Below are positions 20,403-58,023 of a stretch of 64,000 bases of DNA, piece by piece; position 1 is the first letter of the stretch; the number at the start of each line of letters is the position of its first letter. A model generated the notes under the pieces. That model was not told where the DNA came from. It worked only from the letters and a program-made list of their open reading frames with translations, and did not search any database. The stretch lies in assembly GCF_009914755.1 (NCBI RefSeq), contig NC_060943.1, one strand, 5' to 3'. The stretch comes from the human T2T-CHM13v2.0 reference genome, Homo sapiens. The translations under genes and the position numbers were made by a program.

Positions 20403-20803
20403 GGGAGACTTTTCATTTTGTTCTGTACTAAGAAAAATTCTTCTGCCTTGGGATCCTGTTGATCTATGACCTTACCCCCAACCCTGTGCTCTCTGAAACA
20501 TGTGCTGTGTCCACTCAGGGTTAAATGGATTAAGGGCAGTGCAAGATGTGCTTTGTTAAACAGATGCTTGAAGGCAGCATGCTCGTTAAGAGTCATCACC
20601 ACTCCCTAATCTCAAGTACCCAGGGACACAAACACTGCGGAAGGCCGCAGGGTCCTCTGCCTAGGAAAACCAGAGACCTTTGTTCACTTGTTTATCTGCT
20701 GACCTTCCCTCCACTATTGTCCTATGACCCTGCCAAATCCCCCTCTGCGAGAAACACCCAAGAATGATCAATAAAAAAATAATAATAATAATTAAAAAAA
20801 AAA
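20403..20803 (+). mobile_element. 5'-truncated SVA retrotransposon (SINE-R portion + poly-A)
   Basis: HML-2 LTR-derived sequence lacking the 367 bp found at 52825-53191 of the full LTR; AATAAA and A-tail; 16-bp TSD AGAAACTGGCATGTCT (20387-20402, 20804-20819). Confidence 0.93.
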
Positions 20804-52369: not shown

Positions 52370-52491
52370 CTTTTGGAAGGCCAAGTTTTCATATACACAG
52401 TCACCATCCATTCCAGGGTTTGGTCCCATATTGGGTGACTTGTGTGCATCTCCCATATCCTGGGAGTCACTCTCACCCTCTGCACGGGTCC
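52370..52491 (-). CDS. TULP2: TULP2 exon 7 (TRAEGESDSQDM...LAFQK)
   Basis: Acceptor ttttccccacattag (LTR-derived tract), GTAGGA donor, 122 nt in frame with exons 6 and 8. Confidence 0.92.
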
Positions 52492-52495
52492 CTAA

Positions 52496-53458
52496 TGTGG
52501 GGAAAAGCAAGAGAGATCAGATTGTTACTGTGTCTGTGTAGAAAGAAGTAGACATAGGAGACTCCATTTTGTTCTGTACTAAGACAAATTCTTCTGCCTT
52601 GGGATGCTGTTAATCTATAACCTTACCCCCAACCCCGTGCTCTCTGAAACATGTGCTGTGTCCACTCAGGGTTAAATGGATTAAGGGCGGTGCAAGATGT
52701 GCTTTGTTAAACAGATGCTTGAAGGCAGCATGCTCCTAAAGAGTCATCACCACTCCCTAATCTCAAGTACCCAGGGACACAAACACCGCGGAAGGGCGCA
52801 GGGACCTCTGCCTAGGAAAGCCAGGTATTGTCCAAGATTTCTCCCCATGTGATAGTCTGAAATATGGCCTCGTGGGAAGGGAAAGACCTGACCGTCCCCC
52901 AGCCCGACACCCGTAAAGGGTCTGTGCTGAGGAGGATTAGTATAAGAGGAAGGCATGCCTCTTGCAGTTGAGACAAGAGGAAGGCATCTGTCTCCTGCCC
53001 GTCCCTGGGCAATGGAATGTCTCGGTATAAAACCCGATTGTACGTTCCATCTACTGAGATAGGGAAAAACCGCCTTCGGGCTGGAGGTGGGACATGCGGG
53101 CAGCAATACTGCTTTGTAAAGCATTGAGATGTTTATGTGTATGCATATCTAAAAGCACAGCACTTGATTCTTTACCTTGTCTATGATGCAAAGACCTTTG
53201 TTCACGTGTTTGTCTGCTGACCCTCTCCCCACTATTGTCTTGTGACCCTGACACATCCCCCTCTCGGAGAAACACCCACAAATGATCAATAAATACTAAG
53301 GGAACTCAGAGGCTGGCGGGATCCTCCATATGCTGAACGCTGGTTCCCTGGGTCCCCTTATTTCTTTCTCTATACTTTGTCTCTGTGTCTTTTTCTTTTC
53401 CAAGTCTCTCGTTCCACCTAACGAACCCACAGGTGTGGAGGGGCAACCCACCCCTTCA
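52496..53458 (+). mobile_element. HERV-K(HML-2) solo LTR (LTR5_Hs-like, 963 bp)
   Basis: TGTGGGGAAAAGCAAGAGAGATCAG...CCACCCCTTCA, TATAAAA, AATAAA; 5-bp TSD CCTAA (52491-52495, 53459-53463). Confidence 0.96.
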
Positions 53459-53955
53459 CCTAAAGGATGAAAGAAGCCTGGACTAAGCTCAGGACAGCTG
53501 GATCCCAGGAGTGTGGGACACCATCATCAGTGCTAGCCAGAGATGGCCAGAACTCCTGGGTTCTCAGTCCCTACTCATGACTCAGCGCCCTCACTTGCAA
53601 CAACCTCCTCCTCCTCCAGGTGCACGGAAGTCTACAAGGGCCAGAGTTTCTGATTACCCTGGATCTAAGGACAGGGAGGGGTTAGGGTCTTTCCTTTTCC
53701 TTATCTCAGACAAAGCATCACAGAGACTGAAGATGGGGGGATGGAGTTTGGGGTGATAATAATTCTGTCATTGAAATCATTGGCCATCTCATGAAAATAA
53801 AAGGAAACGTCACCACAATGGAATATTATAAGGGAATAAAAAGGAATGAAGTACTGATAATACTACCACACGGATGAACCTTAAAATTTTATGGCCGGGC
53901 ACGGTGGCTCACGCCTGTAATCCCAGCACTTTGGGAGGCCGAGGCGGGCGGATCA

Positions 53956-54465: not shown

Positions 54466-55754
<1,289 letters not shown>

Positions 55755-57711: not shown

Positions 57712-57858
57712 ACTGGAAACCATGGAATTGTGAACTTTAAATGGGTGACTTGTATGGTTTGTGAATTATACTTCAGTGAAGCTGCTGCCTAAGAAAGGGG
57801 AAGATTTGCTGCATGAACCAGGAGATCCCAGGTTTCACCCCAATGTCCCCTAAATTAC

Positions 57859-58023
57859 CAGGTCGTTGGTGGGCTTGCCAACCCTTGCGTCGGATTCTCG
57901 GAGACTGTTTAAAAGGTGGGGGAGAGACGGAACCATTCTCCACGGAGACTTCCTCCAATTCTGCATCGGAATTGTCTGGGAGCCAGGATAAGAAAGGGGA
58001 CTGGAGACCGAGATTCCTGAACA
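57859..58023 (-). CDS. TULP2: TULP2 exon 6 (FRNLGLQSP...HQRP)
   Basis: cttcctcag acceptor, GTAATT donor, 165 nt. Confidence 0.93.

What the first reader, a model, noticed from the sequence alone, without database searches (positions are those of the whole stretch)
52491..53500. HERV-K LTR inserted exactly in the TULP2 exon 7 splice acceptor: duplicated AG|G makes the LTR a precisely removable, intron-like unit
Seen, on the TULP2 (minus) strand: ...CTTCTTTCATCCT-TTAGG-[TGAAGGGG...963-bp antisense LTR...CTGATCTCTCTTGCTTTTCCCCACA]-TTAGG-GACCCGT (exon 7). The 5-bp TSD TTAGG contains the acceptor AG|G, so the 3' splice site exists twice. The in-frame exon 7 acceptor (AG at 52492-52493) takes its whole pyrimidine tract and likely branch point (CTGAT or GTAAC) from the LTR end. 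The apparent ancestral tract and AG survive 968 nt upstream (53460-53476). There the TSD G plus the first LTR base T give AG|GTGAAG, a 3' site directly followed by a GT donor. Removing GT(53459)..AG(52492) restores the pre-insertion mRNA exactly. Inference: an LTR-created recursive splice site or introner-like element that rescued a coding exon. Using the old AG without re-splicing would hit a stop after about 55 LTR-encoded codons. The reconstituted donor CTG|GTGAAG lacks +5G and is weak.
Basis: partly seen in the sequence, partly recalled or inferred. Interest (0 to 1): 0.85.

Follow-up and report, generated by a model that had tools for sequence, protein, structure and literature searches.

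The report
Retroviral LTR rebuilt TULP2 exon-7 acceptor
A young human endogenous-retrovirus LTR landed exactly on the splice acceptor of a coding exon of TULP2, and the gene survived because the insertion's target-site duplication regenerated the AG and the LTR end supplies a usable branch point and pyrimidine tract; two-step "recursive" splicing is possible but unproven and not needed.

Summary
A 963-nt LTR5_Hs solo LTR lies at 52496-53458, antisense to TULP2. It is flanked by a 5-bp target-site duplication (TSD), TTAGG, made of the last 4 intron bases plus the first exon-7 base. It is already catalogued as HML2.LTR809, published age 5.6 My.

The annotated exon-7 acceptor (AG 52493-52492) is the exon-side TSD copy. 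Everything upstream of TTAG is LTR: CTGAT with its A at -26, 15 of 18 pyrimidines, and 34 nt without an AG. These bases are standard for the family (24 of 29 other copies identical), so they were not adapted afterwards.

Primate TULP2 proteins from chimpanzee to Cebus keep the same exon 6/7 register, so the acceptor position is ancestral.

The old acceptor survives 968 nt upstream as AG|GTGAAG. Removing GT(53459)..AG(52492) would restore the mRNA exactly. But the LTR lies inside an existing intron, so ordinary one-step splicing of the 5,367-nt intron 6 explains the annotated mRNA. Nothing I could run shows use of the old AG.

My verdict: this is a real and neat case of splice-signal replacement by a transposable element. 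I found it in no paper I could search. The recursive or introner-like reading is geometry only, at about 12%. Interest is moderate.

The parts
52496..53458 (+). LTR5_Hs solo LTR (HML2.LTR809), 963 nt. Its own sense is the + strand, so it is antisense to TULP2.
   Evidence: termini TG...CA; 40 of 40 scored genome copies are 96-100% identical over essentially the full length. Subramanian 2011 supplement lists chr19 + 49392892-49393855 (hg19), span 963, LTR5_Hs, 5.57 My (4.39-6.75). Gray 2019 lists it as antisense intronic LTR #809 in TULP2.
52491..52495 (-). Exon-side TSD copy TTAGG. It carries the AG (52493-52492) of the annotated exon-7 acceptor and the first exon base (52491).
   Evidence: hub annotation (exon 7 = 52370-52491); (acceptor context and phase 1).
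53459..53463 (-). Upstream TSD copy TTAGG. It holds the old AG (53461-53460). Its last G (53459) plus the first LTR base T (53458) form AG|GT.
53462..53476 (-). Ancestral pyrimidine tract of the pre-insertion exon-7 acceptor (cttctttcatccttt), now stranded 968 nt upstream.
   Evidence: 14 of 18 pyrimidines, 16 nt free of AG, no perfect yUnAy at -15..-50.
52496..52520 (-). LTR-derived 3' splice signals of exon 7: CTGAT (52520-52516, A at 52517 = -26), then a pyrimidine-rich tract to the LTR end.
   Evidence: 15 of 18 pyrimidines, 34 nt free of AG, perfect yUnAy; 24 of 29 other copies have the same 25 nt; no private substitution in the last 89 nt.
52370..52491 (-). TULP2 coding exon 7 (122 nt, phase 1), with donor AAG|GTAGGA.
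   Evidence: Hub annotation; (7 of 9 positions, -9.2 kcal/mol).
57859..58023 (-). TULP2 exon 6. Its last bases CTG would precede any reconstituted donor. Native donor is CTG|GTAATT at 57858.
53176..53459 (-). Hypothetical 284-nt cryptic 'poison' or RS exon inside the antisense LTR, running from the old AG to donor AAG|GTAAAG (GT at 53175). It contains the in-frame stop.
   Evidence: 7 of 9 positions, -6.8 kcal/mol; stop after 54 codons. There is no transcript evidence.
53425..53425 (-). Site of a private 5-nt deletion in this LTR copy, after antisense position 34.
   Evidence: all 29 other copies carry the 5 bases.

Best explanation
An HML-2 provirus, now reduced to a solo LTR5_Hs, integrated a few million years ago antisense into TULP2. 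Its 5-bp staggered target was TTAG|G, the last four bases of intron 6 plus the first base of exon 7.

The target-site duplication left a complete AG|G next to exon 7. The complement of the LTR's U3 start happens to read as a consensus branch site (CTGAT, A at -26), then a pyrimidine-rich, AG-free stretch. A working 3' splice site was therefore present at once.

Intron 6 simply grew by 968 nt, to 5,367 nt. It is removed in one ordinary step from the exon-6 donor to AG 52493-52492. This choice is helped by exon definition with the good exon-7 donor 122 nt downstream.

The old acceptor is left as an intronic decoy.

Shown: the anatomy, the family identity, the family-standard terminus, the annotated use of the exon-side AG, and the conserved protein register. 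Inferred: one-step use, the branch point, and that the decoy is largely ignored.
For: -: exact anatomy.
- Hub annotation: the single RefSeq transcript uses 52491 as the exon-7 start.
- the LTR-borne acceptor scores at or above the median of the 34 annotated acceptors in the window. It has 15 of 18 pyrimidines (median 14.5), a perfect yUnAy at -26 and a 34-nt AG-free zone. It is slightly better than the old acceptor (14 of 18, 16 nt, no perfect yUnAy).
- the 25 terminal nt are identical in 24 of 29 other copies, and TGAAGG starts 27 of 29.
- none of this copy's 9 private substitutions lies in the last 89 or first 34 nt, so no adaptation after insertion is needed.
- 9 of 11 aligned primate TULP2 proteins read ...QRP-(G/E)-T.AEGE... 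with no gap at the junction. These include Macaca, Nasalis, Piliocolobus and Cebus. The other two lack or garble exon 6 but still start the block at GTRAEGE.
- the exon-7 donor is strong (-9.2 kcal/mol against a median of -8.05).
- 6 proteins carry the LTR-encoded peptide, and none carries TULP2 exon 6.
Against: - I had no RNA data, so use of the old AG cannot be excluded.
- The old acceptor is a complete, formerly functional 3' splice site. It is transcribed first and could compete.
- My splice-site measures are crude: pyrimidine counts, consensus matches and U1 duplex energy. 36 of 374 AGs in intron 6 reach 14 of 18 pyrimidines, so these measures do not discriminate well.
- Absence of the LTR from other primates was not checked at DNA level. 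No primate genomes are held.
Confidence: 0.75

Rival explanations
1. Recursive (two-step) splicing. Exon 6 is first spliced to the old AG (53461-53460). The reconstituted donor CTG|GTGAAG is then spliced to AG 52493-52492. The LTR plus one TSD copy is removed as a 968-nt unit and the ancestral mRNA is restored.
For: - The geometry is exact.
- The old acceptor keeps its native tract.
- The reconstituted donor pairs with U1 about as well as the native exon-6 donor: -5.4 against -5.1 kcal/mol, and 6 against 7 of 9 consensus positions.
- Of the 20 AG|GT sites in intron 6, 53459 is one of only three with at least 13 of 18 pyrimidines.
- Recursive splicing has been reported over a wider range of intron sizes than first thought (PMC10156609, abstract seen in the listing).
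Against: - It is not needed to explain the mRNA.
- The donor lies in the lower quartile: only 8 of 34 annotated donors are as weak or weaker by energy.
- In the RS-exon model (PMC6224609, abstract) it would compete with a somewhat better donor 284 nt downstream (AAG|GTAAAG, -6.8 kcal/mol). That predicts a poison exon rather than clean rescue.
- TGAAGG is family-standard (27 of 29), so there is no sign of selection for a donor.
- TULP2 is absent from the supplements of two human recursive-splicing studies. This is a weak negative; I did not check which tissues or cells they used, and TULP2 is mainly testis-expressed (recalled).
Confidence: 0.12
2. The old acceptor acts as a decoy that drains output. 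A fraction of transcripts splice exon 6 to 53459 and either read on or use the LTR-internal donor at 53175, giving a 284-nt exon. Both carry a premature stop and are degraded, so the LTR lowers productive TULP2 expression. This can coexist with the best explanation.
For: - The old 3' splice site is intact.
- A stop follows after 54 codons.
- Donor AAG|GTAAAG scores 7 of 9 positions, and 284 is not a multiple of 3.
Against: - RefSeq has no such isoform (hub table: 1 transcript).
- None of the 6 proteins found with the LTR peptide carries exon 6.
- van de Lagemaat 2006 found no mRNA splice events in antisense HML-2 (PMC1794541, abstract and passages). That screen looked at the internal parts of full-length elements.
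Confidence: 0.15
3. The exon-side AG is not the ancestral acceptor. On this view the LTR created a new acceptor and changed the protein, and the flank match is chance.
For: None beyond the fact that no LTR-free orthologous DNA could be fetched.
Against: - 28 of 30 copies have perfect 5-6-bp TSDs.
- A chance 5-bp match has probability 1/1024.
- The protein register across the junction is unchanged from Pan to Cebus.
Confidence: 0.03

Closest known systems
Splice signals derived from transposable elements (TEs), for example the antisense Alu poly-U tract used as a 3' splice site in exonization (recalled, not from a call)
   Same: A TE in antisense orientation supplies the pyrimidine tract and branch point of an acceptor that is actually used.
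   Different: In this case no new exon is made. The TE replaces the signals of an existing, conserved, constitutive coding exon. The AG itself is host sequence regenerated by the TSD. A screen that looks for splice sites inside repeat annotation would therefore miss it.
Introner elements, meaning transposon-derived introns (PMC11282704, passages read)
   Same: One splice site is co-opted from the TSD (3' AG). The element plus one TSD copy is bounded by GT...AG, and removing it restores the pre-insertion sequence.
   Different: Introners land in exons and create new introns, and they are mostly short DNA transposons in many copies. This is a retroviral LTR at an existing intron/exon boundary. 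No new intron is annotated.
Recursive splice sites, ratchet points and RS-exons (PMC6224609 and PMC6110456, abstracts in the listing)
   Same: A pyrimidine tract, an AG and a GT are juxtaposed, so that a 5' splice site is rebuilt after the first step.
   Different: No intermediates are known. The intron is only 5.4 kb. The donor is weak. The motif arose as a by-product of integration, not as a conserved element.
Catalogued HML-2 solo LTRs in introns (Subramanian 2011, PMC3228705; Gray 2019, PMC6916052)
   Same: This is that very element, HML2.LTR809. It is antisense, as are about 80% of intragenic HML-2 elements (passage).
   Different: Neither paper's text that I saw mentions its position on the splice acceptor. 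Gray 2019 calls it 'located within introns' and tested only its RcRE (the Rec-responsive RNA element), which was inactive with Rev and Rec.

Membership tests
HERV-K (HML-2) LTR5_Hs solo LTR | Full-length similarity to the genomic LTR5_Hs family, with TG...CA termini | tested here: met
   40 of 40 scored matches are 96-100% identical, and 38 cover positions 1-963; sense termini TGTGGGG...CCCCTTCA.
HERV-K (HML-2) LTR5_Hs solo LTR | A 5-6-bp target-site duplication | tested here: met
   TTAGG on both sides. 28 of 30 copies have perfect 5- or 6-bp TSDs.
HERV-K (HML-2) LTR5_Hs solo LTR | Solo state, with no internal proviral sequence adjoining | tested here: met
   both ends abut TSD and TULP2 intron or exon sequence; listed among the solo LTRs as LTR5_Hs.
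Recursive splice site | Juxtaposed 3' and 5' splice-site motif (Y-tract, AG|GT) | tested here: met
   ctttcatcctttag|GTGAAG, with 14 of 18 pyrimidines.
Recursive splice site | A reconstituted 5' splice site strong enough to be used | tested here: inconclusive
   6 of 9 consensus positions and -5.4 kcal/mol. This is similar to the native exon-6 donor (-5.1) but falls in the weakest quarter of 34 annotated donors.
Recursive splice site | Splicing intermediates: upstream exon joined to the RS site, and lariats starting at the RS site | not testable with these tools
   No RNA data are held. TULP2 is absent from the supplements of PMC10156609 and PMC6110456; I did not check which samples those studies used.
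Introner / transposon-derived intron | The element plus one TSD copy is bounded by GT...AG, and removing it restores the pre-insertion sequence | tested here: met
   53459..52492, 968 nt.
Introner / transposon-derived intron | Insertion creates a new intron at a site where there was none | tested here: not met
   The target was the end of the existing intron 6. In the annotation, exon 6 is followed directly by exon 7 at 52491, with no extra intron.
TE-derived acceptor signals of a used exon | The branch point and pyrimidine tract of an annotated acceptor lie inside a TE | tested here: met
   By annotation, everything upstream of -4 is LTR. One search gives the features. The branch point itself is predicted, not mapped.

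The most novel reading that the evidence does not exclude
The young LTR made TULP2 intron 6 a natural two-acceptor system in the human lineage. On this reading a measurable share of testis transcripts use the old acceptor. They are then either re-spliced from the TSD/LTR-built GT, which would be true recursive splicing created in one step by a retroviral integration. Or they are lost through an LTR-encoded poison exon. Either way TULP2 dosage would be tuned in a lineage-specific manner.
Probability: 0.12. Interest if true: 0.7.

Novelty: new member of a known kind. Interest (0 to 1): 0.4.

Why it matters
It is a clean natural experiment. A retroviral insertion directly on a constitutive coding-exon acceptor became fixed or common rather than being removed. 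This happened because TSD formation keeps the AG|G and the LTR5_Hs terminus is by itself a competent branch-point and pyrimidine-tract module.

It shows that the splice signals of a conserved exon can be swapped wholesale for retroviral sequence within a few million years.

It also shows that such cases are invisible to screens that ask whether the splice site itself lies within a repeat.

Finally, it offers a ready-made human locus for testing competition between tandem acceptors, recursive splicing in a short intron, and the splicing behaviour of antisense HML-2 LTRs.

It is not a new mechanism.

Tried and rejected
**Adaptation of the LTR's first bases.** I asked whether TGAAGG is a TULP2-specific change that improved a GT donor. 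From memory I expected TGTAGG. Rejected: 27 of 29 other copies have TGAAGG and only 2 have TGTAGG.

**Adaptation of the LTR-borne tract.** Rejected: there is no private substitution in the last 89 nt, and 24 of 29 copies have the same 25 nt.

**Predicted proteins that read from exon 6 into the LTR.** I searched 'longer' proteins with the 53-aa LTR-encoded peptide and found 6 hits. None carries TULP2 sequence. The tool itself calls such a blank weak evidence.

**Published recursive-splicing tables.** TULP2 is not in the held supplements of PMC10156609 (3 files) or PMC6110456 (6 files).

**Literature on this locus.**
- TULP2 + HERV-K, TULP2 + LTR5 and TULP2 + solo LTR: 2 papers held, 1 work listed, Gray 2019.
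- TULP2 + endogenous retrovirus: 5 papers held, 3 listed, two of them the unrelated Tex10 work.
- 19q13.33 + HML-2 + solo LTR: 0.
- Recursive splicing + target site duplication: 0.
- A five-term search on TSD, splice acceptor, LTR, polypyrimidine tract and antisense: 2 unrelated papers.

**Tool failures.**
- The repeat finder on the minus strand returned an error. I did not repeat it; TSDs were measured by script instead.

- No primate DNA is held, so the empty-site check could not be run.
- MaxEntScan and SpliceAI are not available, so only crude splice-site measures were used.

Full report
**1. What is in the sequence**

On the TULP2 (minus) strand the window reads ...cttctttcatccT-TTAGG-TGAAGGGG...CTGATCTCTCTTGCTTTTCCCCACA-TTAGG-GACCCGT.
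- The element runs from 53458 down to 52496 and is 963 nt long.
- The two TTAGG copies lie at 53463-53459 and 52495-52491.
- RefSeq exon 7 (52370-52491, hub table) begins with the last G of the exon-side copy, so the acceptor AG in use is 52493-52492.
- The other copy puts an AG at 53461-53460, followed by G(53459) and the first LTR base T(53458).
- The span 53459..52492 is 968 nt, starts with GT and ends with AG.

I rebuilt the 520-aa coding sequence from the annotated parts. Exon 7 starts in phase 1. Reading on from the old AG meets a stop after 54 sense codons. Every coordinate and motif in the finding is therefore right.

**2. What the element is**

A search of the window's own genome with the 963 nt gave 2608 first-look candidates. 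All 40 that were scored are 96-100% identical. Of these, 38 cover positions 1-963 and the other two cover 2-963 and 4-963. The boundaries are therefore those of a repeat family.

I extracted the 30 best copies with their flanks.
- 28 of 30 have a perfect 5- or 6-bp target-site duplication: 16 of six bp and 12 of five bp, including this one.
- 27 of the 29 other copies begin TGAAGG on the antisense strand.
- 24 of 29 end with the same 25 nt, CTGAT...CCCCACA.

In print the element is HML2.LTR809: chr19 +, hg19 49392892-49393855, span 963, LTR5_Hs, age 5.57 My (95% range 4.39-6.75). This comes from the supplement of Subramanian 2011, PMC3228705. [quoted passage not shown]

Gray 2019 (PMC6916052, passages) lists it as an antisense, intronic element in TULP2 that carries an RcRE (the Rec-responsive RNA element). 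Their construct gave no signal with Rev or Rec.

My own count gives 9 private substitutions and one private 5-nt deletion at 53425 against the majority of its 29 nearest copies. That is about 0.9%. The figure is biased low, because the copies were picked for likeness to this one. It fits an insertion within the last several million years. Whether chimpanzee or gorilla carry the LTR is open.

**3. Is the acceptor ancestral?**

TSD logic says the empty site read ...catccTTTAG|GGACCCGT. That is a normal acceptor using the tract now at 53476-53462.

As an independent check I searched the protein database with the exon-7 peptide. It returned 31 TULP2 proteins, from Homo to Cebus. I aligned 11 of these 31 with the exon-6 and exon-7 translations.
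- 9 of 11 read ...QRP-(G/E)-T.AEGE... with no gap at the junction. These are Pan, Gorilla, Pongo, Symphalangus, Hylobates, Nasalis, Macaca, Piliocolobus and Cebus.
- One Pongo isoform skips exon 6, and the Nomascus model is garbled upstream. Both still begin the block at GTRAEGE.

Most of these proteins are predicted models, and I could not verify at DNA level that the LTR is absent from these species. However, LTR5_Hs activity is dated to the last ~20 My (passage), and HML-2 is restricted to catarrhines (recalled). At least the New World monkey should therefore lack the LTR.

**4. Where the splice signals now come from**

Upstream of the four bases TTAG, everything is LTR.

| Feature | Exon-side acceptor | Old acceptor | Median of 34 annotated acceptors |
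|---|---|---|---|
| Pyrimidines at -20..-3 | 15 of 18 | 14 of 18 | 14.5 |
| AG-free zone upstream | 34 nt | 16 nt | not computed |
| Perfect yUnAy at -15..-50 | CTGAT, A at 52517 = -26 | none | not computed |

None of this copy's 9 private substitutions lies in the last 89 or the first 34 nt, and the terminus is the family standard. The LTR end was therefore a competent branch-point and pyrimidine-tract module on arrival. I see no sign of later tuning. I had suspected from memory that TGAAGG was a local change that improved a donor. rejects this.

**5. One step or two?**

The recursive reading is geometrically exact. Several points bear on it.
- The reconstituted donor CTG|GTGAAG matches 6 of 9 consensus positions and pairs with the U1 5' end at -5.4 kcal/mol.
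- The native exon-6 donor CTG|GTAATT gives 7 of 9 and -5.1.
- The medians of the 34 annotated donors are 7 and -8.05, and only 8 of 34 are as weak or weaker. The donor is weak, but no weaker than the one this intron already uses.
- Among the 20 AG|GT sites in intron 6, 53459 is one of three with at least 13 of 18 pyrimidines. As a bare motif it is not rare.
- 36 of 374 AGs in intron 6 reach 14 of 18 pyrimidines, several of them inside the LTR. My measures therefore cannot decide usage.
- If the old AG were used, a better donor lies 284 nt downstream (AAG|GTAAAG at 53175, 7 of 9, -6.8). Under the RS-exon model (PMC6224609, abstract) it would compete. It would give a frame-shifting exon that contains the stop.
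- The real exon 7 has a strong donor only 122 nt from its acceptor (-9.2 kcal/mol). That favours its definition as an exon.
- Because the LTR lies within an existing intron, nothing has to be 'rescued' by a second step.

I therefore put one-step splicing at about 0.75, recursive splicing of a meaningful share at about 0.12, and decoy or poison-exon leakage at about 0.15. The last can coexist with the first.

The direct negatives are weak.
- None of the 6 database proteins with the LTR peptide carries exon 6.
- TULP2 is absent from the held supplements of two human recursive-splicing studies. I did not check which samples they used, and TULP2 is mainly testis-expressed (recalled).

**6. More than chance?**

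This is a rough inference.
- Four offsets of a 5-bp TSD keep the AG next to the exon.
- I took roughly 200,000 acceptors (recalled) in 3.12 Gb, and 944 solo LTRs.
- Random integration without selection would then give about 0.2-0.3 such hits genome-wide.

One case is thus not statistically odd. What is notable is that it survived.

**7. Comparison with what is known**

- It works like TE-derived acceptor signals, such as antisense Alu tracts (recalled). The difference is that it replaces the signals of a conserved constitutive exon rather than making a new exon, and the AG is host sequence from the TSD.
- It shares TSD co-option of the 3' AG with introners (PMC11282704, passages). It fails their defining feature, because no new intron is created.
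- It has the motif of a recursive site but none of the evidence.
- van de Lagemaat 2006 (PMC1794541, abstract and passages) found no mRNA splicing events in antisense HML-2. Their screen looked at the internal parts of full-length elements and would not register this case, where the AG lies just outside the repeat.
- None of my ten literature searches turned up a description of this acceptor architecture. Supplements of papers I did not open, and papers outside the held library, may hold one.

**8. Verdict**

The LTR-donated acceptor and the TSD-regenerated AG are well supported. The recursive or introner-like function is speculative and unnecessary. This is a new, instructive member of a known kind, namely splice signals exapted from a transposable element. 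Interest is moderate.

Noticed in passing
window 54466-55367 and 55653-55754 (minus strand, sense to TULP2): A second, older HML-2-type LTR lies in the same intron 6, about 1 kb upstream of the old acceptor. It is 74% identical to the LTR5_Hs copy over positions 86-963 and 87% over positions 1-102, and the two pieces are split by about 285 nt. By coordinate offset it matches HML2.LTR810 (LTR5B, minus strand) in the Subramanian 2011 supplement. It is sense-oriented and carries an AATAAA at 54645 on the TULP2 strand.
   Followed up: partly
window 20404-20775 (PLEKHA4 intron): Fragments similar to LTR5_Hs: 94% over LTR positions 62-329 and 87% over positions 694-798, on the + strand. This may be part of an SVA SINE-R region or a truncated LTR. 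I did not examine it.
   Followed up: no
window 57850-57861: The native TULP2 exon-6 donor CTG|GTAATT lacks both -2A and +5G. It is among the weakest U1 pairings of the 34 annotated donors in the window (-5.1 kcal/mol).
   Followed up: partly
window 53425: This LTR copy alone lacks 5 nt that all 29 other copies carry, 34 nt into the antisense LTR. No consequence for splice-like motifs was evident.
   Followed up: partly
proteins P0004 and P0005 (Gorilla, Pan), alignment A1 columns 500-510: The Pan and Gorilla TULP2 models carry an extra ~10-residue block (RELLETSLAGP) in the tubby domain. It is absent from the human annotated protein and from most other primates aligned. It is probably an alternative or mis-predicted splice site.
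   Followed up: no
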